From the NCBI RefSeq assembly GCF_003790525.1, contig NZ_CP033632.1: a stretch of 64,000 bases of DNA; one strand, 5' to 3'. The stretch's first letter is position 1, and the number at the start of each line of letters is the position of its first letter. Below, in pieces: positions 1-31,838 of this stretch. The DNA comes from Escherichia coli (GTDB lineage Bacteria; Pseudomonadota; Gammaproteobacteria; Enterobacterales; Enterobacteriaceae). The notes below the pieces were generated by a model. That model saw only the letters and a list, made by a program, of their open reading frames with translations. It was not told the DNA's origin and searched no databases. The translations under genes were made by a program, and so were the position numbers.

Positions 1-645
1 TGTAAATAATTGTTCAAAACTCATAAACACTCCTTTGTTAAAGGGCAGGAAGCGGTAAACGTCTCTCCCTTAGTTAAGCCATCAATCACTCGATTAGTTT
101 CTGAATGGCAATCAGCGCGTTTGCAATGGCGAGCACAGCCCTGAGAACGATGATTAACAGATTCATCATCCGTTTCTCTAGGTTGATACTGGAGGAAGTC
201 ACCGTAGCTTGCTCATACATCGCCTGTCACAACGGCTCTCTCACATTGTTGGATGTAGAGTACCTTCCCTCTACCAGAGCACTGAACACAGCACCACCCG
301 TTTGTTCAGCCAGGACTTTAATTCGTTCATCCCCAGATAGCGCAGGGGTTAGAAGCAAGGGAGACACACTGTACAGCGCCAACACAAAGATTATACAGAT
401 GCATGCATAAAATTCATTTAAAGAAATTACCATTGACAGACAATCTGAAGTCAAACTAGACAACAGGTGTCTAGTGCCATAATACTATGAGTGTTGGGTG
501 TAGAGTATCTTCCTCCAGTCAGAGCCACCAACTCAAGGCTGGAAAACACAAAAAAGCCAAATTACCAGTCGGTTTTTTTTGTGCTTGTCGTTCAGCTGTA
601 CTTCCGTTTTTTCCCCCCTTCATTGAAGAAGTAGTAGGCAGAGCA

Positions 646-871: not shown

Positions 872-1691
872 GGCACTGTTGCAAATAGTCGGTGGTGATA
901 AACTTATCATCCCCTTTTGCTGATGGAGCTGCACATGAACCCATTCAAAGGCCGGCATTTTCAGCGTGACATCATTCTGTGGGCCGTACGCTGGTACTGC
1001 AAATACGGCATCAGTTACCGTGAGCTGCAGGAGATGCTGGCTGAACGCGGAGTGAATGTCGATCACTCCACGATTTACCGCTGGGTTCAGCGTTATGCGC
1101 CTGAAATGGAAAAACGGCTGCGCTGGTACTGGCGTAACCCTTCCGATCTTTGCCCGTGGCACATGGATGAAACCTACGTGAAGGTCAATGGCCGCTGGGC
1201 GTATCTGTACCGGGCCGTCGACAGCCGGGGCCGCACTGTCGATTTTTATCTCTCCTCCCGTCGTAACAGCAAAGCTGCATACCGGTTTCTGGGTAAAATC
1301 CTCAACAACGTGAAGAAGTGGCAGATCCCACGATTCATCAACACGGATAAAGCGCCCGCCTATGGTCGCGCGCTTGCTCTGCTCAAACGCGAAGGCCGGT
1401 GCCCGTCTGACGTTGAACACCGACAGATTAAGTACCGGAACAACGTGATTGAATGCGATCATGGCAAACTGAAACGGATAATCAACGCCACGCTGGGATT
1501 TAAATCCATGAAGACGGCTTACGCCACCATCAAAGGTATTGAGGTGATGCGTGCACTACGCAAAGGCCAGGCCTCAGCATTTTATTATGGTGATCCCCTG
1601 GGCGAAATGCGCCTGGTAAGCAGAGTTTTTGAAATGTAAGGCCTTTGAATAAGACAAAAGGCTGCCTCATCGCTAACTTTGCAACAGTGCC
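872..1691 (+). mobile_element. IS26: IS26 copy 1 (820 bp, 14-bp terminal IRs ggcactgttgcaaa)
   Basis: Terminal IRs at both ends; contains the Tnp26 ORF. Confidence 0.97.
917..1639 (+). CDS. tnp26: IS26 transposase Tnp26, Asn184 allele (canonical start MNPFKG at 935)
   Basis: ORF translation matches Tnp26; motif RIINATLGF. Confidence 0.95.
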   Translation: MLMELHMNPFKGRHFQRDIILWAVRWYCKYGISYRELQEMLAERGVNVDHSTIYRWVQRYAPEMEKRLRWYWRNPSDLCPWHMDETYVKVNGRWAYLYRAVDSRGRTVDFYLSSRRNSKAAYRFLGKILNNVKKWQIPRFINTDKAPAYGRALALLKREGRCPSDVEHRQIKYRNNVIECDHGKLKRIINATLGFKSMKTAYATIKGIEVMRALRKGQASAFYYGDPLGEMRLVSRVFEM

Positions 1692-16558: not shown

Positions 16559-17378
16559 GGCACTGTTGCAAATAGTCGGTGGTGATAAACTTATCATCCC
16601 CTTTTGCTGATGGAGCTGCACATGAACCCATTCAAAGGCCGGCATTTTCAGCGTGACATCATTCTGTGGGCCGTACGCTGGTACTGCAAATACGGCATCA
16701 GTTACCGTGAGCTGCAGGAGATGCTGGCTGAACGCGGAGTGAATGTCGATCACTCCACGATTTACCGCTGGGTTCAGCGTTATGCGCCTGAAATGGAAAA
16801 ACGGCTGCGCTGGTACTGGCGTAACCCTTCCGATCTTTGCCCGTGGCACATGGATGAAACCTACGTGAAGGTCAATGGCCGCTGGGCGTATCTGTACCGG
16901 GCCGTCGACAGCCGGGGCCGCACTGTCGATTTTTATCTCTCCTCCCGTCGTAACAGCAAAGCTGCATACCGGTTTCTGGGTAAAATCCTCAACAACGTGA
17001 AGAAGTGGCAGATCCCACGATTCATCAACACGGATAAAGCGCCCGCCTATGGTCGCGCGCTTGCTCTGCTCAAACGCGAAGGCCGGTGCCCGTCTGACGT
17101 TGAACACCGACAGATTAAGTACCGGAACAACGTGATTGAATGCGATCATGGCAAACTGAAACGGATAATCAACGCCACGCTGGGATTTAAATCCATGAAG
17201 ACGGCTTACGCCACCATCAAAGGTATTGAGGTGATGCGTGCACTACGCAAAGGCCAGGCCTCAGCATTTTATTATGGTGATCCCCTGGGCGAAATGCGCC
17301 TGGTAAGCAGAGTTTTTGAAATGTAAGGCCTTTGAATAAGACAAAAGGCTGCCTCATCGCTAACTTTGCAACAGTGCC
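16559..17378 (+). mobile_element. IS26: IS26 copy 4
   Basis: 820 bp with terminal IRs. Confidence 0.97.
16604..17326 (+). CDS. tnp26: IS26 transposase Tnp26, Asn184 allele
   Basis: ORF translation. Confidence 0.95.
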   Translation: MLMELHMNPFKGRHFQRDIILWAVRWYCKYGISYRELQEMLAERGVNVDHSTIYRWVQRYAPEMEKRLRWYWRNPSDLCPWHMDETYVKVNGRWAYLYRAVDSRGRTVDFYLSSRRNSKAAYRFLGKILNNVKKWQIPRFINTDKAPAYGRALALLKREGRCPSDVEHRQIKYRNNVIECDHGKLKRIINATLGFKSMKTAYATIKGIEVMRALRKGQASAFYYGDPLGEMRLVSRVFEM

Positions 17379-19084
17379 ATATGACGATGGCTGCTAAAGA
17401 GCTGCTGGAGTCACAAGGGCTGAAGGTCACGGCGCTGGCCCCCTATGGGACACAGAAAAAAGCGCTTGAAGATGATGGATTACCGGCCCGCACCGTTGCC
17501 GCTTTCCTCAAAGCGAAGGATAAAAAGCTGGATGAAAAATCAGTCGTATTCATTGATGAAGCCGGGGTTATACCCGCCCGACAGATGAAACAGCTGATGG
17601 AGGTAATCGAGAAGCATAACGCTCGCGCGGTATTCCTGGGGGATACGTCACAGACGAAAGCGGTAGAAGCCGGTAAGCCTTTTGAGCAGCTGATTAAAGC
17701 AGGTATGCAGACCAGCTACATGAAAGACATTCAGCGACAGAAGAATGAAGTTTTGCTTGAGGCGGTTAAGTATGCCGCTGAAGGTAATGCCGCGCGCGCC
17801 CTGAAAAATATCACCGGCGTGAACGAACTGAAGGAAGAAGCGCCCCGACTCGCTCAACTTGCCGATCGCTACCTGTCTCTGTCCTCAGAACAACAGGATG
17901 CCACCCTGATAATCTCTGGTACGAACGCCTCACGCAAAACCCTCAATGACTACATCCGGGGCAATCTGGGGCTTGCCGGAACCGGCGAAACGTTCACGCT
18001 ACTTGACCGCGTGGATTCGACACAGGCGGAACGCCGCGACAGCCGTTATTTCAGTAAAGGGCAAATCATTATCCCCGAACAGGATTACAAAAATGGTATG
18101 AAGCGGGGCGAGTCTTACCAGGTTCTTGATACCGGGCCGGGCAACAAATTGACGGTTGAAAGCATCAGCGGTGAGCAGATCGCTTTCAGCCCGCGTACAC
18201 ACACCAAGCTGTCTGTATACCAGGCAGTCAGCGCCGAACTGGCGCCGGGCGATAAGGTTATGGTAACGCGTAACGATAAAACGCTGGACGTTGCCAACGG
18301 CGACCGCTTCACGGTGAAAACCGTGGAGGGTGAAAAACTGACGCTTGAGGACAAAAAAGGGCGCACGGTTGAGCTGGATAAAAAACAGGCTTCTTATCTT
18401 TCCTATGCTTATGCAACCACCGTCCACAAATCCCAGGGGCTTACCTGTGATCGCGTGTTGTTCAACATAGATACCAAATCGCTTACCACTTCTAAGGACG
18501 TTTTTTATGTTGGTATTTCGCGTGCGCGTCATGAGGTGGAAATTTTTACCGACGATAAAAAATCTTTGGCATCGAGCGTGAGCCGCGACAGCCCGAAAAC
18601 CACGGCCGCAGAAATTGACCGTTTCTTTGGACTTGAGGCCAGGTTTAAGGATATTGGCCGCGATACCAGTTTAGAAACCCGATCAGCTGAAAAAGGTCTG
18701 CCAGAAGCCACGGGGGAAAGCATGGCGTTTAACCAGAAACCCGATGAACATAACATGACAACCGGCACTGATTATCAGCCGGTGAGCAACGCAGAGGACG
18801 CCTTTCATCTTAAGCAGAACCCTATGGATGATTCCGTTGGCCTGCGGCGTCATGAAGCACAGCAAAATGATGCAGAGCTGGCCCATGATTATGCTGCTGC
18901 CGACGATCAGCAGTGGAGCGCGCAGGAGTATGCCGATTACGAGCATTATGCCGAAGCATCCGACTACGACTTTGACAGCAGCATTTACGACGATTACGCC
19001 ATGCCGCAGACGTCTCAGGCGGAACAGAGCCATACCGGAAAAGAACACACCCATGAGCATGAAGAAGGGGGCCATGAAATCTGA
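17379..19084 (+). pseudogene. traI: Conjugative relaxase/helicase (TraI-like) C-terminal fragment; 5' part removed by IS26
   Basis: Reading frame starts at the IS26 boundary; helicase-like body with an acidic C-terminal tail. Confidence 0.7.
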
Positions 19085-20196: not shown

Positions 20197-21090
<894 letters not shown>

Positions 21091-21092
21091 CT

Positions 21093-22149
21093 GGTTTTGT
21101 TGAATAAATCGAACTTTTGCTGAGTTGAAGGATCAGATCACGTATCTTCCCGACAACGCAGACCGTTCCGTGGCAAAGCAAAAGTTCAAAATCACCAACT
21201 GGCCCACCTACAATAAAGCCCTCATCAACCGTGGCTCCATAACTTTCTGGCTGGATGATGAAGCTATTCAGGCCTGGTATGAGTCAGCAACACCTTCTTC
21301 ACGAGGCAGACCTCAGCGCTATTCTGACCTTGCCATCACGACTGTGCTGGTCATTAAACGCGTATTCAGGCTGACCCTGCGCGCTGCGCAGGGCTTTATT
21401 GATTCCATTTTTTCTCTGATGAACGTTCCGCTACGCTGCCCGGATTACAGCTGTGTCAGCAGGCGGGCAAAGTCGGTTAATATCAGTTTCAAAACGCCCA
21501 CCCGGGGTGAAATCGCACACCTGGTAATTGATTCCACCGGGCTGAAGGTCTTCGGTGAAGGCGAGTGGAAAGTCAAAAAGCATGGCCAGGAACGCCGTCG
21601 TATATGGCGTAAGCTGCATCTGGCAGTTGACAGTAAAACACATGAAATCATCTGCGCTGACCTGTCGCTGAACAACGTTACGGACTCAGAGGCCTTCCCC
21701 GGGTTAATCCGGCAAACCCACCGGAAAATCAGGTCAGCCGCCGCCGATGGAGCTTACGATACCCGGCTCTGTCACGATGAACTGCGGCGTAAGAAAATCA
21801 GCGCGCTTATCCCGCCCCGAAAAGGTGCGGGTTACTGGCCCGGTGAATATGCAGACCGTAACCGTGCAGTGGCTAATCAGCGAATGACCGGGAGTAATGC
21901 GCGGTGGAAATGGACAACAGATTACAACCGTCGCTCGATAGCGGAAACGGCGATGTACCGGGTAAAACAGCTGTTCGGGGGTTCACTGACGCTGCGTGAC
22001 TACGATGGTCAGGTTGCGGAGGCTATGGCCCTGGTACGAGCGCTGAACAAAATGACGAAAGCAGGTATGCCTGAAAGCGTGCGTATTGCCTGAAAACACA
22101 ACCCGCTACGGGGGAGACTTACCCGAAATCTGATTTATTCAACAAAGCC
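21093..22149 (+). mobile_element. IS903: IS903 (1057 bp, 18-bp IRs)
   Basis: IRs ggttttgttgaataaatc at 21093 and gatttattcaacaaagcc at 22132..22149. Confidence 0.9.
21170..22093 (+). CDS. IS903 transposase (GTG start)
   Basis: ORF 21125..22093 translation is IS5-family. Confidence 0.88.
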   Translation: MAKQKFKITNWPTYNKALINRGSITFWLDDEAIQAWYESATPSSRGRPQRYSDLAITTVLVIKRVFRLTLRAAQGFIDSIFSLMNVPLRCPDYSCVSRRAKSVNISFKTPTRGEIAHLVIDSTGLKVFGEGEWKVKKHGQERRRIWRKLHLAVDSKTHEIICADLSLNNVTDSEAFPGLIRQTHRKIRSAAADGAYDTRLCHDELRRKKISALIPPRKGAGYWPGEYADRNRAVANQRMTGSNARWKWTTDYNRRSIAETAMYRVKQLFGGSLTLRDYDGQVAEAMALVRALNKMTKAGMPESVRIA

Positions 22150-23247
22150 ACGCGCTGGACACACCACGATGACAGCGGTTTTATCCCTTACGCCATCACC
22201 ACCGGCCTTGATTACGAGGCGATGACCGAACAGCGCAAAGGCTATGAGAACTTTGTTTATCAGAACGGCGTTTACGATCTCGGCACCAAAGGTGATATGC
22301 GACGTAACGAACGTAACCTGATGTGGAACCTCGATCCCTACATTCAAACGCACTGGCAGCTCACCTCAGCCCTGGGGCTGGACGCCGGGGCGCGCTATAG
22401 CTCGGTATGGTTTGATTCCAACGATCGTTATGTTGTAGGTAAAAATGGTGATGATAGCGGCGAAGCGAGCTATCACAAGTGGCTTCCGGCGGCAGCGCTG
22501 AAGTATGCCATGACGCCGCAGTGGAACGTTTACCTCTCTGCCGGGAGGGGATTTGAAACGCCGACCATTAACGAGCTGTCCTATCGTCCCGATGGTCAGT
22601 CCGGGCTTAACTTTGCTCTGCAACCGGCCACTAACACCACCGTTGAAGCAGGCAGTAAATGGCAGGTGGGCACCGGGATGGCGAGCCTGAGCGTCTTCAA
22701 TACGGACACGAAAAATGAAATTGTCGTTGCCGCCAGCGACAATGGCCGTACGTCCTATCAGAACGCGGGCAAGACGCGCCGCCGCGGGGTCGAACTGGGA
22801 TGGGATCAGCAATTTGCGCCCGCCTGGCGCGCCAAACTGGCGTGGACGCTGCTGGATGCGACCTACCGTGAAAACGCCGGCGATGCTATTCAGAGCGGCA
22901 ATCGGATCCCGGGGATTGCACGTAATAGCGCCTATGCCTCCTTTGGCTGGGTGCCGGAAGAGGGATGGTACGCTGGCGCTGAAGTCCGCTATATGAGCGA
23001 TATTCAGGTCAACGATGCCAATAGCGAGCAGGCTCCAGCCTATACGGTGACGGCACTGAATACCGGCTATAAATATGTGCTAGATAACTGGACCGTCGAC
23101 CTCTATACGCGCGTTGATAACCTGTTTGATAAGCGCTACGTCGGCTCTGTTATCGTCAACGAGAGCAACGGACGCTATTATGAACCGGCGCCGGGCCGTA
23201 ACTATGGCGTTGGGCTATCGGTCAGCTATCAGTTTGATTCGCTGTAA
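22150..23247 (+). pseudogene. iroN: TonB-dependent siderophore receptor (IroN-like) C-terminal fragment
   Basis: Beta-barrel C-terminus ending ...YGVGLSVSYQFDSL; starts at the IS903 boundary. Confidence 0.75.
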
Positions 23248-23791
23248 CAATACGGCTGCCGGAGAGTGCTATTGAGGTGAGGCTCCGGCAGCGGGTAAAG
23301 GCGTTGATTCCTGGTAACAATAAGCTGCTTATTGATGTATCAGTAAGCATGCCGGCAGCCATTGCGCTTGATATAATACTACCCCATATGAGCAAGAGTA
23401 TTTTCACGGAAAAGCTAGCAGCCAATTTCGGCCTCGCGGCCTTCCCGCTTCTCAATTGAGCATATAATTTTTCCGCAGCCAAAACCTGCTCAGGTTCAGG
23501 CTTGGTCCTTACAGACTGGTATTCAACAATCGAACCATTCTTAGCTATTGGCGTTACATAAGCACTTACCCAATAGTGGTCGCCATTTTTACAGCGATTT
23601 TTTACTAGCCCCATCCATGAGCGGCCAGATTTTAATGTACTCCACATATGCTCAAATGCAGCAGGCGGCATATCTGGGTGTCTTACGATGTTGTGAGGCT
23701 GGCCTAATAGTTCTTCCTCAGTGAAACCACTGATTTTAATGAAGTCAGGATTAACGTACGTGATATGGCTTTGAGGGGAGGTAGTCGAAAG
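23222..23791 (-). pseudogene. PAS-domain sensor (Aer-like) fragment, 5' end removed by IS26
   Basis: PAS-like segment PAAFEHMWSTLKSGRSWMGLVKNRCKNGDHYWV; coding frame continues up to the IS26 boundary. Confidence 0.55.
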
Positions 23792-24611
23792 GGCACTGTT
23801 GCAAAGTTAGCGATGAGGCAGCCTTTTGTCTTATTCAAAGGCCTTACATTTCAAAAACTCTGCTTACCAGGCGCATTTCGCCCAGGGGATCACCATAATA
23901 AAATGCTGAGGCCTGGCCTTTGCGTAGTGCACGCATCACCTCAATACCTTTGATGGTGGCGTAAGCCGTCTTCATGGATTTAAATCCCAGCGTGGCGCCG
24001 ATTATCCGTTTCAGTTTGCCATGATCGCATTCAATCACGTTGTTCCGGTACTTAATCTGTCGGTGTTCAACGTCAGACGGGCACCGGCCTTCGCGTTTGA
24101 GCAGAGCAAGCGCGCGACCATAGGCGGGCGCTTTATCCGTGTTGATGAATCGCGGGATCTGCCACTTCTTCACGTTGTTGAGGATTTTACCCAGAAACCG
24201 GTATGCAGCTTTGCTGTTACGACGGGAGGAGAGATAAAAATCGACAGTGCGGCCCCGGCTGTCGACGGCCCGGTACAGATACGCCCAGCGGCCATTGACC
24301 TTCACGTAGGTTTCATCCATGTGCCACGGGCAAAGATCGGAAGGGTTACGCCAGTACCAGCGCAGCCGTTTTTCCATTTCAGGCGCATAACGCTGAACCC
24401 AGCGGTAAATCGTGGAGTGATCGACATTCACTCCGCGTTCAGCCAGCATCTCCTGCAGCTCACGGTAACTGATGCCGTATTTGCAGTACCAGCGTACGGC
24501 CCACAGAATGATGTCACGCTGAAAATGCCGGCCTTTGAATGGGTTCATGTGCAGCTCCATCAGCAAAAGGGGATGATAAGTTTATCACCACCGACTATTT
24601 GCAACAGTGCC
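23792..24611 (-). mobile_element. IS26: IS26 copy 5 (Gly184 allele)
   Basis: 820 bp with terminal IRs. Confidence 0.97.
23844..24566 (-). CDS. tnp26: IS26 transposase Tnp26, Gly184 allele
   Basis: ORF translation. Confidence 0.95.
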   Translation of the reverse strand: MLMELHMNPFKGRHFQRDIILWAVRWYCKYGISYRELQEMLAERGVNVDHSTIYRWVQRYAPEMEKRLRWYWRNPSDLCPWHMDETYVKVNGRWAYLYRAVDSRGRTVDFYLSSRRNSKAAYRFLGKILNNVKKWQIPRFINTDKAPAYGRALALLKREGRCPSDVEHRQIKYRNNVIECDHGKLKRIIGATLGFKSMKTAYATIKGIEVMRALRKGQASAFYYGDPLGEMRLVSRVFEM

Positions 24612-24933
24612 GTAATTATTTAGGATATAGCTCTGTGATTTAGTCTTTTTAGGGCGTTTATTTATGTCTTTATGCTGTAATGTCGGTGCTGATTTGGTCT
24701 TCAATAAGGCGATTTTTAGCCCGCTTTTTCCGGGGGGATGAAATGTTATTGGATTGCTAAATGATTTCAAAAAAGGGGTAACATAGAGCGGGGATTAGTG
24801 TGGCGAGGCGCAGGTTTCCGATGGCAGGCTAAACGCAAAAAATGCGCTTTTTAGCCGGTGATGAGGTGAGGCCGGGAGGGGATGCGTCGCCGATCACAGT
24901 TTACAACAGGGTTTGATAACGGGAGGAAAAGTC

Positions 24934-25350
24934 ATGCTGCAGGGATTGAATCATCTGACGCTGGCGGTCAGCGATCTGGCGTCAAGCCTGGCATTTTATC
25001 AGCAGTTACCTGGAATGCGCCTGCACGCCAGCTGGGATAGCGGAGCCTATCTCTCCTGTGGGGCGCTGTGGCTGTGCTTGTCGCTGGATGAGCAGCGGCG
25101 TAAAACGCCCCCTCAGGAAAGCGACTATACCCACTACGCCTTCAGCGTGGCGGAAGAAGAGTTTGCCGGGGTGGTGGCTCTGCTGGCGCAGGCGGGGGCT
25201 GAGGTATGGAAAGATAACCGCAGTGAAGGGGCGTCTTACTATTTTCTCGACCCTGACGGCCATAAGCTGGAGCTGCATGTGGGGAATCTGGCGCAGCGGC
25301 TGGCCGCCTGTCGCGAACGCCCCTACAAGGGGATGGTCTTTTTTGATTGA
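24934..25350 (+). CDS. fosA3: Fosfomycin glutathione transferase FosA3, 138 aa
   Basis: Translation from [40 protein letters not shown]... matches FosA3. Confidence 0.9.
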
Positions 25351-25354
25351 CGGG

Positions 25355-25873
25355 TTAGTTCAGCTTACTGCCGGATTTCAACGTGCAGATCCACAGCGGT
25401 GAATTGATAGAGCTGAGCAAGATAGCCTTTTCGTTGAGCTTCTGAGCGTTGAGAAACAGCCCGTCGTGGCTGTCGGACATCTCGCGCATAAAGTAGTCGA
25501 AAATCACGTTCGGCGATTCATCAATCGAGGAGGCGCTCGATTCCCACTGATTGATGCGGTAATGACGCTCGGTGGCCGAGATGCGTTTGCTGCTGTAGGT
25601 AAACTTCACGTAGCGTTGCAGGTAGAGCCAGCCGGCGGCGGAGTCGGTGTAACCTTCGACCACCATCGAGCCTTTACCCTGCGCGCCAAAATTGAAGTGA
25701 ATATTGCCGTTAACGTTCTCTTTGTCCATGTTCTCAAAGCGCATGATGCCCTTAGTGGAACAGCTCATGACACCCGCGTTGTCGGCAGGCAGCAGCCGCC
25801 AGGCGCTAAACGCGGCGGCGGCAATAAATACCAGAACGCAGAGGGCAAAGAACGGACGCGGCGCGAGTCTCAT
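25355..25873 (-). CDS. Hypothetical membrane-anchored protein (orf1 of the fosA3 module)
   Basis: N-terminal hydrophobic segment; position in the usual fosA3 module. Confidence 0.6.
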   Translation of the reverse strand: MRLAPRPFFALCVLVFIAAAAFSAWRLLPADNAGVMSCSTKGIMRFENMDKENVNGNIHFNFGAQGKGSMVVEGYTDSAAGWLYLQRYVKFTYSSKRISATERHYRINQWESSASSIDESPNVIFDYFMREMSDSHDGLFLNAQKLNEKAILLSSINSPLWICTLKSGSKLN

Positions 25874-26661
25874 TACGGCTTCCAGGAGTAGTAAAAGTAG
25901 TTATCGCAATAGCTGAACGGGTTATCTTCATGCATGGCGCAGTGGGCAAGGAACACGCGCCCCAGCCCGTTGGTTTCGAGCCGATCGCCGTAGAAGAAAA
26001 GAAAACGTTCACCGGGTTTACAGGCAATATTCAGCCGCTGGCGTACCTCATCGAAGTTTTTGCCGTAGGACTCTTCACTGACCGAACGTCGCATTTCATC
26101 GCTGGCCAGCAGTTCGCACTGGCTATGGCTGAGGCGGGTCAGCGCGATAGGCTGGGATTCACTGATGCCGACCAGACTGAAGGCAACCAGAAGCAGGGCA
26201 ATGGTGAGCAAGCAGGCTCCGGCCATGTACCAGCACATCCCGCGAGCATGTGCGGAGCGCGGTGCGTCTGGCGTTGTCGTAACGGGCGGCGGTTCGGCAG
26301 GCGTCTGTTGTGGTGAAACCGGCGGCGCGTCGTCCAGCGCTTCGATAATGACCTCGGGATTAAGCTGCAAATAGCCGCGCGAGACGGTGACGATGATGTT
26401 ATCGACGCCGTAATGGCGAAAGGTCTTCCGCAGCATGCTGAGATACTGATTCAGATTGCTGTTGGATGAGGTTAATCCATTGTCATCCCAGACTTTTTTC
26501 AGAACATCTTCCCGGCTGACAATCTCGGTATGGCGCAGAAAATAGTTAAACAGGGCGCTGGCGGTGAGGGATAGCTGGCTGTCCGGTTCATCGCTTTGCG
26601 GCAGCGTCAGGGTTCCGTCGGTGGCGTCGTAGATAAAACGGGCATTGATGTTGTAGCGCAT
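25873..26661 (-). CDS. CadC/ToxR-like membrane-anchored winged-helix regulator (orf2)
   Basis: OmpR/PhoB-type DNA-binding N-terminus, proline-rich linker, one transmembrane segment. Confidence 0.6.
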   Translation of the reverse strand: MRYNINARFIYDATDGTLTLPQSDEPDSQLSLTASALFNYFLRHTEIVSREDVLKKVWDDNGLTSSNSNLNQYLSMLRKTFRHYGVDNIIVTVSRGYLQLNPEVIIEALDDAPPVSPQQTPAEPPPVTTTPDAPRSAHARGMCWYMAGACLLTIALLLVAFSLVGISESQPIALTRLSHSQCELLASDEMRRSVSEESYGKNFDEVRQRLNIACKPGERFLFFYGDRLETNGLGRVFLAHCAMHEDNPFSYCDNYFYYSWKP

Positions 26662-26680
26662 CGCGGCCTCAGTCTGTGCT

Positions 26681-27108
26681 TCACGCGGGAAGCGTCATTT
26701 TATTCAGGGAGTCAACCAGCGCGCGACGGTGGTCGGCGCTCATGGTGATCCCTTCCGTCAACTCCGAAAGCCAGATGCCGTCAGCGGCGTAGCGCACCAG
26801 CGTGCCGGTTGGGCTGTTATCCAGCTCATCGCCCTGCGCCAGTTTCTCCAGCATCCAGTCGCGCCAGCATTTGCGCAGCACCGGTTCATCGGGCATTGCC
26901 AGCGACAAAACCATAAGCTGGCGGCTTTCATGGGTGTCCGTGAGATCCGCCAGATAGTTCAGATAGGCGCGGGTAAACCGGCCATAGCTCACGCCATCCT
27001 GTTGCATCAGCGCGGTAATCGCTTCTTCCATGATTGCCAGCAGACGCGCGAACAGGGCGAATATTAGCGCCTGCTTGTTCGGGAAATGGTGGATAAGGCC
27101 GCCTTTAC
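26681..27108 (-). pseudogene. TetR-family regulator C-terminal fragment (orf3), 5' end removed by IS26
   Basis: TetR-like ligand-domain sequence; frame runs into the IS26 end. Confidence 0.6.
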
Positions 27109-27928
27109 GGCACTGTTGCAAAGTTAGCGATGAGGCAGCCTTTTGTCTTATTCAAAGGCCTTACATTTCAAAAACTCTGCTTACCAGGCGCATTTCGCCC
27201 AGGGGATCACCATAATAAAATGCTGAGGCCTGGCCTTTGCGTAGTGCACGCATCACCTCAATACCTTTGATGGTGGCGTAAGCCGTCTTCATGGATTTAA
27301 ATCCCAGCGTGGCGCCGATTATCCGTTTCAGTTTGCCATGATCGCATTCAATCACGTTGTTCCGGTACTTAATCTGTCGGTGTTCAACGTCAGACGGGCA
27401 CCGGCCTTCGCGTTTGAGCAGAGCAAGCGCGCGACCATAGGCGGGCGCTTTATCCGTGTTGATGAATCGCGGGATCTGCCACTTCTTCACGTTGTTGAGG
27501 ATTTTACCCAGAAACCGGTATGCAGCTTTGCTGTTACGACGGGAGGAGAGATAAAAATCGACAGTGCGGCCCCGGCTGTCGACGGCCCGGTACAGATACG
27601 CCCAGCGGCCATTGACCTTCACGTAGGTTTCATCCATGTGCCACGGGCAAAGATCGGAAGGGTTACGCCAGTACCAGCGCAGCCGTTTTTCCATTTCAGG
27701 CGCATAACGCTGAACCCAGCGGTAAATCGTGGAGTGATCGACATTCACTCCGCGTTCAGCCAGCATCTCCTGCAGCTCACGGTAACTGATGCCGTATTTG
27801 CAGTACCAGCGTACGGCCCACAGAATGATGTCACGCTGAAAATGCCGGCCTTTGAATGGGTTCATGTGCAGCTCCATCAGCAAAAGGGGATGATAAGTTT
27901 ATCACCACCGACTATTTGCAACAGTGCC
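27109..27928 (-). mobile_element. IS26: IS26 copy 6 (Gly184 allele)
   Basis: 820 bp with terminal IRs. Confidence 0.97.
27161..27883 (-). CDS. tnp26: IS26 transposase Tnp26, Gly184 allele
   Basis: ORF translation. Confidence 0.95.
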   Translation of the reverse strand: MLMELHMNPFKGRHFQRDIILWAVRWYCKYGISYRELQEMLAERGVNVDHSTIYRWVQRYAPEMEKRLRWYWRNPSDLCPWHMDETYVKVNGRWAYLYRAVDSRGRTVDFYLSSRRNSKAAYRFLGKILNNVKKWQIPRFINTDKAPAYGRALALLKREGRCPSDVEHRQIKYRNNVIECDHGKLKRIIGATLGFKSMKTAYATIKGIEVMRALRKGQASAFYYGDPLGEMRLVSRVFEM

Positions 27929-28687: not shown

Positions 28688-29418
28688 AATTTTCCAAATT
28701 TTCTGAGTTGGTGAATCGTATTTTGTCCAACAACCACAGCCATCGTCGCGATATGGATGTAACAATCGTTGTTCATTCGCCTGGCAGCATTGGTTCAACA
28801 CCTTCAGTTGAGGTTCAGTCAATTCACGCTGGTTTTGATTGGGATTCCGGGAAAGTGCTTATTTTCCCATCACAGCCACTGACCACGCTAACACCAGAAC
28901 AGATTACTGATATCACTGATAGTGTGCGCAAAGGTCAGTCTTGGCACGCATATCAGGAATACAAGAAGCATCAAGAGCAGTTGGAAAAATTGTCGATTGA
29001 ACTGGATGCCGCAAAACAGCGCATTGCAGAGCTGGAGGGTAATCGCACGGCGCTGGCAGTGGAGAATGAGCTGGCTCGTAAGGCAGTTCAGGCATTCTGC
29101 GATGTTGTTGGCGACAACACCGAGGTTATCGCTGAGGTGGTTGGGCGAGATGGCGTTCTGGTTATTTTGGAGGCCATGAAGGCAACAGGAAATATGCCAG
29201 CCACCGATGCTTTCCTGGCTGAAGTGCGGGCGCAGGGCGTGGATGCTGCTATAGAAGCTGCAAAAAATCTGGTGGCCCAAGAATATGAGTATAAGGATTT
29301 CAAAGCGGCGCAGAGTGATTGCTGTATGCACCCTGGTTCAGACCTGGTAGGGAAGGTTGAAATGACTGAGTGGTTAGTTGACTTTGCTGCCCAGCTTCGC
29401 AAAGGAGGCAACCAGTGA
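28684..29418 (+). CDS. Hypothetical phage protein, coiled-coil, 244 aa
   Basis: ATGA overlap; paralogous C-terminal region to 27929..28400. Confidence 0.55.
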   Translation: MKFSKFSELVNRILSNNHSHRRDMDVTIVVHSPGSIGSTPSVEVQSIHAGFDWDSGKVLIFPSQPLTTLTPEQITDITDSVRKGQSWHAYQEYKKHQEQLEKLSIELDAAKQRIAELEGNRTALAVENELARKAVQAFCDVVGDNTEVIAEVVGRDGVLVILEAMKATGNMPATDAFLAEVRAQGVDAAIEAAKNLVAQEYEYKDFKAAQSDCCMHPGSDLVGKVEMTEWLVDFAAQLRKGGNQ

Positions 29419-29933
29419 GCGAAATTAATTACCAGGCACTGCGTGAGGCGGCGGAACGTGCAATTCCAGCAATGGAACGCCTGTTAATGTTGCCAGCTGA
29501 TGATGATTTGTTAAGTGAACAGGAACTTAAAGATTACGGTGTGGATATTGATGCGCTCAACGCCTTCAAATTTCTGGCCGGACCAGAAACCGTGCTGGCA
29601 CTACTGGATGAACGGGAAAGGAACCAGCAATACATCAAACGCCGCGACCAGGAGAACGAGGATATTGCGCTAACGGTAGGGAAGCTGCGCGTTGAGCTTG
29701 AAGCAGCAAAATCAAAACTCAACGAGCAGCGTGAATATTACGAGGGAGTAATCGCGGATGGAAGTAAGCGCATAGCAGAACTGGAGGAGCGGGAAATACT
29801 GCTCCCGGAACGTAGCAGCATGCTTCATCGAACAGATTTTCACGATGATTACCAAACGGTAATGGCATACAAAGTTTCTGAAGTCATCGCTGCAATCCGC
29901 GCCGCAGGCATTCGCATCAAAGGAGGTGAGTAA
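29415..29933 (+). CDS. Hypothetical coiled-coil protein, 172 aa
   Basis: GTGA overlap with the upstream gene. Confidence 0.55.
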   Translation: MSEINYQALREAAERAIPAMERLLMLPADDDLLSEQELKDYGVDIDALNAFKFLAGPETVLALLDERERNQQYIKRRDQENEDIALTVGKLRVELEAAKSKLNEQREYYEGVIADGSKRIAELEEREILLPERSSMLHRTDFHDDYQTVMAYKVSEVIAAIRAAGIRIKGGE

Positions 29934-30109
29934 TGCGTGTGGCATGTATCGGCTTGTTACCGTACCCGACTCGTTTTTGGGCTTCTGCGCTAATTGCAAA
30001 GCCGTATGTCCTGATGGCTGACAACATCATCCCGGCACCAAAGCGCCGCCATACCGGTATTGCAGCGGCACGACGAGCAGCAAAGAGACGCAGGAGAGCA
30101 AAGCGATGA
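29933..30109 (+). CDS. Small basic protein, 58 aa (below the ORF-track threshold)
   Basis: Manual translation [58 protein letters not shown]; overlaps neighbours at both ends. Confidence 0.4.
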   Translation: MRVACIGLLPYPTRFWASALIAKPYVLMADNIIPAPKRRHTGIAAARRAAKRRRRAKR

Positions 30110-30282
30110 AAAACCGTAAGGCAAAACGACTTTTTTTACAGCGACCTGTGCGTGTGGTGGAGCTGGTTATTAGCAACCATAAGATAGCGGTACTCCATCC
30201 ATTTGGTCAGGTGGCTTTTGCCGCAAAGCGTAAGCCTACTGCGTCACAGAACAGGCGGAAGAAAGGGTACGCAGTAAGATGA
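30106..30282 (+). CDS. Small basic protein, 58 aa, starting MKNRKAK
   Basis: Manual translation; ATGA overlap with the next gene; paralog of 30279..30467. Confidence 0.4.
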   Translation: MKNRKAKRLFLQRPVRVVELVISNHKIAVLHPFGQVAFAAKRKPTASQNRRKKGYAVR

Positions 30283-30467
30283 AAAACCGTAAAGCAAAGA
30301 TTCTGTTAGTTCGTAGAAACGCTCCTGGCGTCTGGCAGTGGGTGAGACTCAGCAACCGACGGATGGGGTTGATGAAATATTACGGGATGATGGATTGTGG
30401 TTTTTGCAAAAAGCCCAGCGCGGCGCAAAACCGCTGGAAAAACCATTTGCGCACTAAAGGAGAGTGA
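30279..30467 (+). CDS. Small basic protein, 62 aa, starting MKNRKAK
   Basis: ORF-track entry; tandem paralog of the preceding gene. Confidence 0.45.
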   Translation: MKNRKAKILLVRRNAPGVWQWVRLSNRRMGLMKYYGMMDCGFCKKPSAAQNRWKNHLRTKGE

Positions 30468-30468
30468 T

Positions 30469-30984
30469 ATGGCGTTAACACACCGCGAACTCTGTCAGAT
30501 TGCGTACAAGTTCCTTAAGCGCAACGGGTTCAAGGTTTGTTTTCATGACCGCTTTATAGCTGTAACCAGTACCGGAGAACAGCCAGATGCTATGGGGTTC
30601 AGAAATTCAGCATCATGCCTGATAGAGGCGAAGTGTTCTCGTGCTGATTTGTTGGCAGATAGAAAAAAGCGTTTTCGTAAAAATCCGTCTCTTGGAATGG
30701 GCGACTGGCGATTCTTTATTAGTGAGCCGGGAATTATTTCAATTGAGGATTTACCACCTGGCTGGGGATTACTTCACGTTGTTAACGGAAGAGTACGGAA
30801 AGTACATGGGTGGCCCAAGGGTAATTGCTGTTGGGGTAACCCTGAAGATAAACCTTTTATTGGGAATAAGCAGGTTGAATGCGATTACATGTTATCTGCA
30901 TTAAGGCGCATGGAGTTGAGAGGGCACCTTAATGAAATATATGACGGTGTAATTGTTAATAAGAAAGAAGGAAACGCGGCATGA
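30469..30984 (+). CDS. PD-(D/E)xK-type nuclease-like protein (about 171 aa from MALTHRELCQ)
   Basis: Motif ...EQPDAMGF...CLIEAKCS... (PD, then E-x-K); AAGGAG Shine-Dalgarno 9 bp upstream. Confidence 0.5.
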   Translation: MALTHRELCQIAYKFLKRNGFKVCFHDRFIAVTSTGEQPDAMGFRNSASCLIEAKCSRADLLADRKKRFRKNPSLGMGDWRFFISEPGIISIEDLPPGWGLLHVVNGRVRKVHGWPKGNCCWGNPEDKPFIGNKQVECDYMLSALRRMELRGHLNEIYDGVIVNKKEGNAA

Positions 30985-31838
30985 TCACTATTACCAAAGA
31001 GCGACTGCTGACAATCAAGCAGTGGCGCGAAACATACGGACCTGATAGCAACGTTGTACTGCCAGCAGAAGAAGCGGAAGAACTGGCGCGTATCGTGCTG
31101 GCATCGCTGGAAGCAGAGCCTGTTCTGTATCAGTCCTGCACTCGCCCCACCTGGAATAGCGGTGTTCCGTGGACGGAATGGAAAGAACGTAGTCGTGAGT
31201 GCTACGAAGACGATTTGCGTTTTACAGACACGCCTGACCATGCCGGTTGGATATACAAATGTCGAAAACTATATACCACTCCGCCAGCGCCGATAGCGTT
31301 AGAGGCCATTGAAAACGCAATTGAATACATTCGTAGTATCGCTTTTCACATCGATGAAGACGATTACCACGGCAAACATATTGCGTATTTCATGCGACAA
31401 GCATTGGCCTGGCTGGAAGGGCATTCATGCAGCGACGACAGACTGGGTAAAGCCGACAATCAACCAGTACGCGGCAACCAGGCTGCCGAATCCAATCGCG
31501 GTAATGAGTGGACCGGCAATCCTGATATTGATAACGCAATCATCATGCTCGACCGCATAGATACGGCGGAAAGTTACGATGATGACCGTATTGAGGCTGT
31601 TAAGGCTGTTTTGCGTAGACTGGCAGGCAACTCTCCGGTAACTCCGGATGGTTGGATAAGCTGTAGTGAGCGAATGCCCCCTCAAGATGATTGGATTTTA
31701 ATTTATTCAAAGCACGGCGAGTATATGGCAGGACAGGTACAAGGGGAATACGTGGAGTTGAGCGACGGCACTTTATCGTGGTTAGGGAACGCCTTGTTCT
31801 GGATGCCGCTACCAGAACCGCCGCAGGAGGCGAAATGA
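30981..31838 (+). CDS. Phage protein with a DUF551-like C-terminal domain, 285 aa
   Basis: C-terminal GWISCSERMPPQDDWILIY...LSWLGNALFWMPLPEPP resembles DUF551. Confidence 0.5.
   Translation: MITITKERLLTIKQWRETYGPDSNVVLPAEEAEELARIVLASLEAEPVLYQSCTRPTWNSGVPWTEWKERSRECYEDDLRFTDTPDHAGWIYKCRKLYTTPPAPIALEAIENAIEYIRSIAFHIDEDDYHGKHIAYFMRQALAWLEGHSCSDDRLGKADNQPVRGNQAAESNRGNEWTGNPDIDNAIIMLDRIDTAESYDDDRIEAVKAVLRRLAGNSPVTPDGWISCSERMPPQDDWILIYSKHGEYMAGQVQGEYVELSDGTLSWLGNALFWMPLPEPPQEAK

What the first reader, a model, noticed from the sequence alone, without database searches (positions are those of the whole stretch)
29933..30984. Three tandem tiny basic proteins coupled to a PD-(D/E)xK nuclease-like gene
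Three consecutive ORFs of 58, 58 and 62 aa are highly basic. The last two both start MKNRKAK, indicating a tandem duplication, and all are linked by ATGA overlaps. They directly precede a roughly 171-aa protein with a clear PD...E-x-K signature (EQPDAMGF...CLIEAKCS), whose Shine-Dalgarno lies inside the preceding gene. Small nucleic-acid-binding partners ahead of a nuclease could be inhibitors, specificity factors or an anti-defence module.
Basis: partly seen in the sequence, partly recalled or inferred. Interest (0 to 1): 0.55.

Follow-up and report, generated by a model that had tools for sequence, protein, structure and literature searches.

The report
Small basic genes beside phage nuclease
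Three real but uncharacterised tiny basic-protein genes lie next to an intact MmcB/Hjc-like DNA-nuclease gene in a P1-like phage-plasmid, but the two are separately shuffled prophage cassettes rather than a dedicated nuclease-partner system.

Summary
ORF1 (29933-30109), ORF2 (30106-30282) and ORF3 (30279-30467) are open, have pI 11.3-12, and precede a 171-aa gene (30469-30984) with invariant D40, E53 and K55.

The small ORFs look translated. pN/pS is about 0.4 in frame against 0.8-1.0 out of frame, and 0.01 for the MKNRKAK N-terminus. All ORF1 indels are in frame.

The proposed coupling is not conserved:
- 46 of 80 viral loci with a 98-100% identical nuclease place it directly after an Ea22-like gene.
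- Only 21 of 120 loci with an MKNRKAK gene have the nuclease downstream.
- 909 complete E. coli genomes carry the nuclease; at most 167 carry the whole block.
- Distant nuclease homologues sit in nin regions beside RusA, NinG and NinB, with no small basic ORFs.

ORF1 and the MKNRKAK genes do travel together, as their own module of unknown function. The tight gene junctions are generic portable stop/start joints of this mosaic operon. Verdict: ordinary lambdoid accessory mosaic; modest interest.

The parts
29415..29933 (+). Ea22-like gene (172 aa, acidic). It is the usual upstream neighbour of both the small-ORF module and, in other phages, of the nuclease itself.
   Evidence: phrog_250/368. 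Annotated ead/Ea22-like in related records. Its C-terminal ...GIRIKGGE* junction is seen.
29920..29935 (+). Portable junction AAGGAGGTGAGTAATG: Shine-Dalgarno, Ea22-like stop and ORF1 start.
   Evidence: Sequence. The same ATTCGCATCAA(A/C)GGAGGTGAGTA junction precedes ORF1 in most loci with an ORF1 homologue.
29933..30109 (+). ORF1: 58-aa basic protein with a hydrophobic N-half and an invariant arginine-rich tail [11 protein letters not shown](K/R)RRRAKR. Belongs to phrog_13831.
   Evidence: 46 distinct DNA variants are all open, and all indels are in frame. pN/pS is 0.41 in frame against 1.08 and 0.97 out of frame. Both halves are below 0.45. It precedes the first MKNRKAK gene in about 84 of 120 loci.
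30106..30282 (+). ORF2: 58-aa MKNRKAK-family protein of the subtype with the ...QNRRKKGYAVR tail, which is used when another MKNRKAK gene follows. It is an optional member of the module.
   Evidence: phrog_1380. 37% identical to ORF3. Present in the 539-nt form of the block and absent from the 366-nt form. Tail usage.
30279..30467 (+). ORF3: 62-aa MKNRKAK-family protein with the ...AAQNRWKNHLRTKGE tail.
   Evidence: phrog_1380 E 1e-40. 86 distinct proteins of 50-65 aa were recovered, nearly all 58-65 aa. Substitutions by codon position are 74/53/126, and pN/pS is 0.39 against 0.80 and 0.76 out of frame. N-terminal 8 codons: pN/pS 0.011 with pS 0.15. AlphaFold model of low confidence, pLDDT 65.
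30450..30471 (+). Portable junction CGCACTAAAGGAGAGTGATATG: Shine-Dalgarno, ORF3 stop, 1-nt spacer and nuclease start.
   Evidence: The same AAAGGAGAGTGA(T/G)ATG joint links the nuclease to Ea22-like genes in other phages. It also links MKNRKAK genes to many different downstream genes. Nuclease-only BLAST matches in E. coli start at query 518-524, which is window 30450-30456.
30469..30984 (+). 171-aa PD-(D/E)xK-fold nuclease-like protein. It is distantly related to MmcB-like (PF06319), Hjc and YraN families. Catalytic candidates are D40, E53 and K55.
   Evidence: Intact at 171 aa in all 80 close loci. The start at ATG 30469, not GTG 30397, is supported by homologue N-termini and the Shine-Dalgarno.
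30981..31838 (+). Downstream DUF551-type gene (285 aa), joined by an ATGA overlap. This is context only.
   Evidence: The gene downstream of the nuclease varies between loci, but all begin M(I/T)TIT....

Best explanation
The region is a stretch of lambdoid-prophage early accessory genes, of the ea/nin type. It sits in the variable region of a P1-like (IncY) phage-plasmid and is read as one tightly packed + strand operon. It holds two independent cassettes that recombination has placed side by side.

(1) A small-protein module. ORF1 is followed by one or two members of the MKNRKAK family (here ORF2 and ORF3). These are translated, very basic proteins of 58-62 aa. Their arginine- and lysine-rich ends are under strong protein-level constraint and their cores are variable. 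Inference: they bind nucleic acid, and act on their own rather than through the nuclease.

(2) A 171-aa PD-(D/E)xK enzyme with an intact D40...E53-x-K55 site. Its nearest solved relative is the MmcB-like protein SPO1766. Inference: it is a metal-dependent, structure-specific DNA endonuclease. It probably helps phage recombination, or the processing of damaged or branched replication intermediates, as its nin-region neighbours Rap/NinG and RusA do.

The overlapping or abutting stop/start joints, with the Shine-Dalgarno inside the upstream gene, are generic portable junctions at which cassettes are exchanged. They are not a sign of a dedicated pair.

Shown: the ORFs, the coding signatures, the fold, the conserved motif and the lack of conserved linkage. 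Inferred: nucleic-acid binding by the small proteins, and the substrate and role of the nuclease.
For: Context:
- P1-like backbone with Ea22-like, DUF551, eaa, ASCH, hot, humD and phd/doc around the block.
- No promoter- or terminator-like site inside the small-ORF and nuclease genes; the nearest is a minus-strand promoter-like match just past the nuclease stop.

Nuclease:
- AlphaFold model pLDDT 84, pTM 0.79, with helix-strand-strand-strand-helix-strand order.
- Family profile against PDB: 3dnx E 8e-5, aligning D...IECKSSRADFQAD.
- The 3dnx segment is Pfam MmcB-like, E 1.6e-33.
- AFDB50 neighbours are annotated MmcB family, YraN family or Holliday junction resolvase.
- D40, E53 and K55 are conserved.
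- 3328 cluster representatives at E <= 0.001.
- 171 aa and intact in 80 of 80 close loci.
- Homologues lie beside RusA, NinG, NinB and Dam.
- MmcB is described as a PD-(D/E)XK endonuclease protecting against mitomycin C (PMC9578287).

Small ORFs are coding.

Independence of the cassettes. RCS47 keeps ORF1-ORF3 but has a different downstream gene.

Portable junctions.
Against: - No experiment bears on any of the four proteins, and no paper mentions them.
- The window protein itself matches no Pfam, NCBIfam or PADLOC model, so the family assignment rests on structure and profile evidence.
- The small-protein structure model is of low confidence and has no structural or sequence neighbour. 'Nucleic-acid binding' is inferred from charge only.
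- In 167 complete E. coli genomes the block and the nuclease are adjacent. An opportunistic functional interaction where they co-occur is therefore not excluded.
- The locus samples are not random: the 80 best nuclease matches, and the first 120 pattern matches.
Confidence: 0.72

Rival explanations
1. One reading: the three small basic proteins are dedicated partners of the nuclease. They would be inhibitors or antitoxins, specificity or DNA-loading factors, or, together with it, an anti-defence module. Translational coupling would set their stoichiometry.
For: They are adjacent and translationally coupled in the window and in at most 167 complete E. coli genomes. The proteins are basic and plausibly bind nucleic acid. 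A different small ORF, a Zn-ribbon Lar-like protein, overlaps the nuclease start in a Providencia prophage.
Against: - An intact nuclease occurs without them in 46 of 80 close loci, and about 909 genomes carry it against at most 167 with the whole block.
- Only 21 of 120 MKNRKAK loci have the nuclease downstream; the rest have many other genes.
- Phage RCS47 keeps the small ORFs without the nuclease.
- Distant nuclease homologues have no relatives of the small ORFs nearby.
- No PADLOC match.
Confidence: 0.08
2. The small ORFs are not genes. They are open frames that arise by chance in recombination linker DNA or in a non-coding RNA region between Ea22 and the nuclease.
For: - ORF1 is left unannotated in several records.
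- The ends of the units are conserved junctions.
- Rare variants carry a compensated double frameshift through the core, such as P0174 and P0180.
- The core is highly variable.
Against: - In-frame pN/pS is 0.39-0.41 against 0.76-1.08 in the other frames.
- The MKNRKAK N-terminus tolerates synonymous but not amino-acid change: pN/pS 0.011, substitutions 0/1/9 by codon position.
- The core also shows third-position excess, 48/32/74.
- All ORF1 length variants are in frame.
- Shine-Dalgarno sites sit in place.
- No Rfam hit, and the RNA folds no better than shuffles, z +0.74.
Confidence: 0.05
3. The nuclease is a weapon rather than a repair or recombination enzyme. It would be an accessory gene for defence, superinfection exclusion or host-DNA degradation, carried in a variable region.
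For: It sits in a hypervariable accessory region among genes of unknown function. PD-(D/E)xK domains are common effectors of defence systems, for example the Can2, Card1 and restriction enzyme hits.
Against: - No PADLOC family matches.
- It is a single small domain with no sensor or partner conserved next to it.
- Its closest relatives are MmcB-like, Hjc and YraN families, not restriction or abortive-infection effectors.
- It recurs next to the recombination genes RusA, NinG and NinB.
Confidence: 0.15

Closest known systems
MmcB-like DNA repair proteins (Pfam PF06319): Caulobacter MmcB and SPO1766 of Silicibacter pomeroyi (PDB 3dnx)
   Different: The window protein does not reach the Pfam model, with no hit even at E <= 10. 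Only 1 of 48 homologues hits at E <= 0.001. It is phage-borne in early operons, not an SOS-regulated chromosomal gene (PMC9578287 for MmcB). It carries extra conserved motifs, GMGDWRF and GWGLL, and a C-terminal helix with SALRR.
Archaeal Holliday junction resolvase Hjc (PF01870) and YraN/UPF0102 (PF02021)
   Same: Same PD-(D/E)xK core and a similar size. Weak Pfam hits among homologues: Hjc 3 of 48 at E <= 0.001 and 19 of 48 at E <= 0.1; UPF0102 1 of 48. Some close UniProt homologues are auto-named YraN family. Profile against PDB gives Hjc E about 0.1.
Lambda nin-region recombination nucleases Rap (NinG) and RusA
   Same: Small phage-encoded DNA endonucleases in mosaic early accessory regions. 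Homologues of the 171-aa protein lie immediately next to RusA (Providencia) or NinG (Lonsdalea).
   Different: Unrelated folds and families. The resemblance is of context and presumed role only.
Arginine-rich RNA-binding peptides such as lambda N (recalled from memory, not tested)
   Same: The tails of ORF1 ([18 protein letters not shown]) and of MKNRKAK proteins (AAQNRWKNH) are short, arginine-rich, alanine-containing segments in an early phage operon.
   Different: No detectable homology to anything in Pfam or PDB. No boxB-like target was sought. This is a lead only.
PHROG families phrog_13831 (ORF1) and phrog_1380 (ORF2, ORF3)
   Same: Full-length matches: E 1e-41 for ORF1, 6.5e-23 for ORF2 and 1e-40 for ORF3. 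The proteins are already catalogued.
   Different: The families carry no functional annotation.

Membership tests
PD-(D/E)xK nuclease superfamily | Core fold of helix, three strands, helix and strand | tested here: met
PD-(D/E)xK nuclease superfamily | Conserved acidic residue before strand 2 and (D/E)-x-K in strand 3 | tested here: met
   D40, E53 and K55 are invariant in 26 homologues. D40 is invariant and E53 and K55 are at least 90% conserved in 48 divergent homologues. They align to D...ECK of 3dnx.
PD-(D/E)xK nuclease superfamily | Metal-dependent phosphodiester cleavage | not testable with these tools
   Needs biochemistry.
MmcB-like (Pfam PF06319) | Significant match to the Pfam family model | tested here: not met
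   No Pfam hit for the window protein even at E <= 10. Among 48 homologues, 1 hits at E <= 0.001 and 11 at E <= 0.1.
MmcB-like (Pfam PF06319) | Whole-domain structural similarity to a solved member | tested here: met
MmcB-like (Pfam PF06319) | Role in tolerance of mitomycin C or cross-links; SOS regulation | not testable with these tools
   Described for Caulobacter MmcB (PMC9578287). Here the gene is in a phage early operon.
Hjc Holliday junction resolvase (PF01870) | Match to the family model and close structural similarity | tested here: not met
Dedicated two-component system (nuclease plus inhibitor, antitoxin or specificity factor) | Conserved co-occurrence of the components across relatives | tested here: not met
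   46 of 80 nuclease loci lack the small ORFs. 21 of 120 MKNRKAK loci have the nuclease. 909 genomes against at most 167. Distant homologues have none.
Known anti-phage defence systems (PADLOC-DB) | Match of any component to a defence-system model | tested here: not met
   No family at E <= 0.1 for any of the four proteins.
Lambdoid mosaic accessory cassette (ea/nin-type genes) | The same gene in different neighbourhoods, with exchange points at gene boundaries | tested here: met
   The nuclease follows either Ea22-like genes or ORF3 through the same AAAGGAGAGTGA(T/G)ATG joint. Its downstream genes vary. MKNRKAK genes precede more than 15 different genes. Homologues lie in nin regions.
ORF1 + MKNRKAK small-protein module (phrog_13831 + phrog_1380) | The two families occur together, in that order | tested here: met
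   An ORF1 homologue is upstream in nearly all of the roughly 35 nuclease-linked loci that have MKNRKAK genes, 34 loci in all. It is also upstream in about 84 of 120 pattern-selected loci.

The most novel reading that the evidence does not exclude
ORF1 plus the MKNRKAK proteins form a previously undescribed, self-contained and mobile module of two ultra-basic small proteins. Their invariant arginine- and lysine-rich ends would bind RNA or DNA, and the hypervariable core would set target specificity. The module would re-programme early phage or host gene expression, or neutralise a host factor. Where it lies next to the MmcB-like nuclease it might also modulate that enzyme.
Probability: 0.15. 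Interest if true: 0.6.

Novelty: new member of a known kind. Interest (0 to 1): 0.3.

Why it matters
- The 171-aa protein stands for a large family with no Pfam, NCBIfam or PADLOC model: 3328 cluster representatives at E <= 0.001, and presence in about 17% of complete E. coli genomes. It can now be filed as an MmcB/Hjc-like PD-(D/E)xK enzyme with named catalytic residues, which makes it directly testable.
- The small basic proteins are real, selected genes of unknown function that are common in Shiga-toxin prophages and P1-like resistance plasmids. They are cheap targets for functional screens.
- The main practical result is negative. Tight translational coupling in lambdoid accessory operons should not be read as evidence of a functional pair.

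Tried and rejected
No hits for the proteins:
- Pfam, NCBIfam and PADLOC scans of the window proteins.
- phmmer of the nuclease against PDB: noise only.

No sign of a non-coding RNA or internal transcription signal:
- Rfam over the region at E <= 1: nothing.
- RNA folding of 29920-30480: z +0.74, no structure signal.
- Promoter and terminator scan: nothing inside the block.

Small-protein structure and relatives:
- AlphaFold of the MKNRKAK family: pLDDT 65, pTM 0.31. Foldseek against PDB with that model: best E 0.66, meaningless.
- hhalign of the ORF1 family against the MKNRKAK family: probability 0.2%, so ORF1 is not a third paralogue.
- Profiles of both small families against PDB: only a non-significant MS2-coat SSAQNRK resemblance, E 0.78.
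- tblastn of the small ORFs against distant nuclease loci: nothing.
- Literature search for MKNRKAK: no papers.

Considered and rejected:
- The 195-aa GTG-started ORF (30397-30984) as the real nuclease gene. Homologue N-termini and the Shine-Dalgarno support ATG 30469.
- A recent tandem duplication of ORF2 and ORF3. They are only 37% identical, and both subtypes exist as separate lineages.
Full report
**1. What is there**

The window is a P1-like phage-plasmid. The stretch 29400-31900 matches Punavirus records and IncY plasmids at 97-99.7% identity. The related records carry pmgS, pap, hot, humD, phd/doc and lpa around it.

Between the pap side and hot these elements hold a block of lambdoid-type early accessory genes: Ea22-like, DUF4752, DUF551, eaa and ASCH. 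The finding lies inside this block.

- ORF1: 29933-30109.
- ORF2: 30106-30282.
- ORF3: 30279-30467.
- A 171-aa ORF: 30469-30984.

The three small products have pI 11.3-12.0 and net charge +14 to +15.

The gene joints are as follows:
- Ea22-like to ORF1: TAATG.
- ORF1 to ORF2: ATGA.
- ORF2 to ORF3: ATGA.
- ORF3 to the 171-aa gene: TGAtATG.
- The 171-aa gene to the DUF551 gene: ATGA.

Each start is preceded by a Shine-Dalgarno inside the upstream gene. The scan finds no promoter- or terminator-like site inside the small-ORF and nuclease genes. This fits one long + strand operon.

**2. The nuclease-like protein**

It matches no Pfam, NCBIfam or PADLOC model. phmmer against PDB gives only noise.

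It belongs to a large family:
- 319 clusters at 90% identity, found across Enterobacterales and nearly all called hypothetical.
- 3328 representatives of 50%-identity clusters at E <= 0.001.

D40, E53 and K55 are invariant in 26 homologues. Over 48 homologues of 34-56% identity, D40 stays invariant and E53 and K55 stay at least 90% conserved.

The AlphaFold model (pLDDT 84, pTM 0.79) has the helix-strand-strand-strand-helix-strand order of restriction-endonuclease-like enzymes. D40 sits just before strand 2, and E53 and K55 lie in strand 3.

Structure and profile comparisons agree:
- A profile of the family finds 3dnx by sequence at E 8e-5 and aligns the ...IECKSSRADFQAD motif.
- The aligned 3dnx segment is Pfam MmcB-like at E 1.6e-33.
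- AFDB50 neighbours include proteins named MmcB family (37-40% identical), YraN family and Holliday junction resolvase.
- Scanned singly, 11 of 48 homologues touch MmcB-like and 19 of 48 touch Hjc at E <= 0.1.

MmcB of Caulobacter is described as a PD-(D/E)XK endonuclease that protects against mitomycin C (PMC9578287). 3dnx is used as a PD-(D/E)xK reference structure (PMC3045609; PMC4838377).

The protein is a distant relative of the MmcB-like, Hjc and YraN group, but not a formal Pfam member.

The gene is intact at 171 aa in all 80 close viral loci.

**3. Are the small ORFs genes?**

ORF2 and ORF3 are paralogues, 37% identical at E 5e-10, of phrog_1380. ORF1 is phrog_13831 and is unrelated to them.

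For the MKNRKAK family I collected 105 distinct DNA sequences, giving 86 distinct proteins of 50-65 aa, nearly all 58-65 aa. The pattern is an invariant MKNRKAK, a variable core with a conserved (I/L)(S/T)N(R/H)(R/K) motif, and a conserved ...(S/T)A(A/S)QNR... tail.

Within subtypes the substitution pattern is that of a coding sequence:
- Minimum substitutions by codon position are 74/53/126. pN/pS is 0.39 in frame against 0.80 and 0.76 out of frame.
- The first eight codons show 0/1/9 substitutions, pS 0.15 and pN/pS 0.011. The N-terminus is therefore conserved as protein, not merely as DNA.
- The core has pN/pS 0.50 and the tail 0.33.

ORF1 gives the same answer:
- All 46 distinct DNA variants are open.
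- All length differences are whole codons.
- pN/pS is 0.41 in frame against 1.08 and 0.97 out of frame. Both halves are constrained.

No Rfam family matches, and the RNA folds no better than shuffled sequence (z +0.74).

I conclude that all three are translated genes under moderate purifying selection.

Their function stays unknown:
- No Pfam hit.
- No PDB relative.
- A low-confidence structure model: helix, three strands, helix; pLDDT 65.
- No structural neighbour.
- No literature.

**4. Is the pairing with the nuclease meaningful?**

No.

From the nuclease side:
- Among the 80 IMG/VR loci with a 98-100% identical nuclease, 46 have the gene directly after an Ea22-like gene.
- The joint in those loci is ...GGCATTCGCATCAAAGGAGAGTGATATG. 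Its final stretch, AAAGGAGAGTGATATG, is the same joint that links ORF3 to the nuclease in the window.

From the small-ORF side:
- Among 120 viral contigs picked only for the MKNRKAK start, 21 have the nuclease downstream. The rest have more than 15 other genes.
- The ...ACTAAAGGAGAGTGATATG end of the small gene is kept whatever follows it.
- Phage RCS47 has ORF1-ORF2-ORF3 followed by a different gene.

In 5426 complete E. coli genomes:
- The nuclease is present at 80% coverage or more in 909.
- Some part of the small-ORF block is present in 586.
- The combined 1052-bp stretch is present in 167. Most nuclease matches begin at query 518-524, exactly at the joint.

More distant homologues have different neighbours:
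- Homologues 66-67% identical, in Providencia and Lonsdalea prophages, lie in nin regions next to RusA, NinG, NinB and Dam.
- Others lie in arrays of small early genes, one near RusA.
- None has relatives of the small ORFs nearby.

ORF1 and the MKNRKAK genes do travel together. ORF1 is upstream in nearly all nuclease-linked loci that have them, and in about 84 of 120 pattern-selected loci. ORF2 is optional: the block exists as a 366-nt and a 539-nt form.

The real unit is therefore ORF1 plus one or two MKNRKAK genes, and it is independent of the nuclease.

**5. Mechanism**

Best-supported reading: two independent cassettes of a mosaic early operon, brought together by exchange at short conserved stop/start joints.

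The nuclease is most likely a metal-dependent, structure-specific DNA endonuclease. It would serve phage recombination, or the processing of damaged or branched replication intermediates. This rests on fold, family and recurrent recombination-gene neighbours. It is an inference and is untested.

A role as a defence or host-attack nuclease is a weaker rival: there is no PADLOC match, and no sensor or partner is conserved next to it.

The small proteins probably bind nucleic acid through their arginine- and lysine-rich ends. This rests on composition only.

**6. Comparison, novelty and score**

The nuclease is a new, Pfam-less member of a known kind: PD-(D/E)xK, nearest to MmcB-like. The small proteins are already catalogued as PHROGs of unknown function.

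The dedicated nuclease-partner idea fails its defining test, which is conserved co-occurrence.

Interest is modest at 0.3. The region is ordinary lambdoid mosaicism, with two testable leads:
- a large unannotated nuclease family with named catalytic residues;
- a selected, ultra-basic two-family small-protein module.

Noticed in passing
window 20215-27883: An IS26-bounded resistance module lies just upstream of the ea-type block. It holds blaCTX-M (20215-21090, NF033089, 618 bits), an IS5-family IS903B-like transposase (21125-22093), a C-terminal fragment of a TonB-dependent receptor (22222-23247) and fosA3/4 (24913-25350). IS6-family (IS26-type) transposase ORFs lie at 23844-24566 (-) and 27161-27883 (-), with another copy at 917-1639 (+).
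   Followed up: partly
window 86-581: Rfam AgrB (RF02891) hit at 494-581 (+), 51.8 bits against a gathering score of 40. A hydrophobic 44-aa ORF lies at 86-220 (-). This may be a dinQ/agrB-like type I toxin-antitoxin locus on the plasmid.
   Followed up: no
window 30279-30984: phrog_9263 (230 aa) equals ORF3 residues 1-61 fused to the nuclease from residue 3. phrog_12350 (155 aa) ends with ORF3. Some phage records therefore carry, or are called with, fusions across these joints. Whether this reflects a real indel or a gene-calling artefact was not resolved.
   Followed up: no
window 30240-30282 and 30420-30467; loci L083-L202: The tail of an MKNRKAK protein depends on what follows it. It is ...QNRRKKGYAVR before another MKNRKAK gene and ...QNRWKNHLRTKGE before any other gene, including hybrids with an ORF3-type core and a GYAVR tail. 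This suggests recombination inside the conserved SAAQNR segment.
   Followed up: partly
P0174, P0180 (relatives of window 30279-30467): Rare variants read the core of ORF3 in the +1 frame and return to frame before the conserved tail, a compensated double frameshift. The +1 frame is open in the window too (ORF 30338-30457). Each has only one member sequence, so this may be assembly error.
   Followed up: no
window 30981-31838; loci L003-L082: Every gene found downstream of the nuclease starts M(I/T)TIT... (or a close variant such as MNSIT...) with an ATGA overlap, but the bodies and lengths differ, from 44 to 404 aa. This is another conserved portable junction.
   Followed up: partly
L203 3831-4010; L206 3733-4003: In a Providencia prophage, a 59-aa Zn-ribbon ORF with a weak Lar_restr_allev hit overlaps the start of the nuclease homologue. 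In Lonsdalea, the uncalled gap upstream contains a CxxC...CxxC ORF. These small Zn-ribbon neighbours are unrelated to ORF1-ORF3.
   Followed up: no
window 17366-19084: A 572-aa ORF has partial matches to relaxase/helicase and RecD-type models (TraA_Ti E 5e-48, RecD2 E 3e-30), all below the curated cut-offs. It was not examined further.
   Followed up: no
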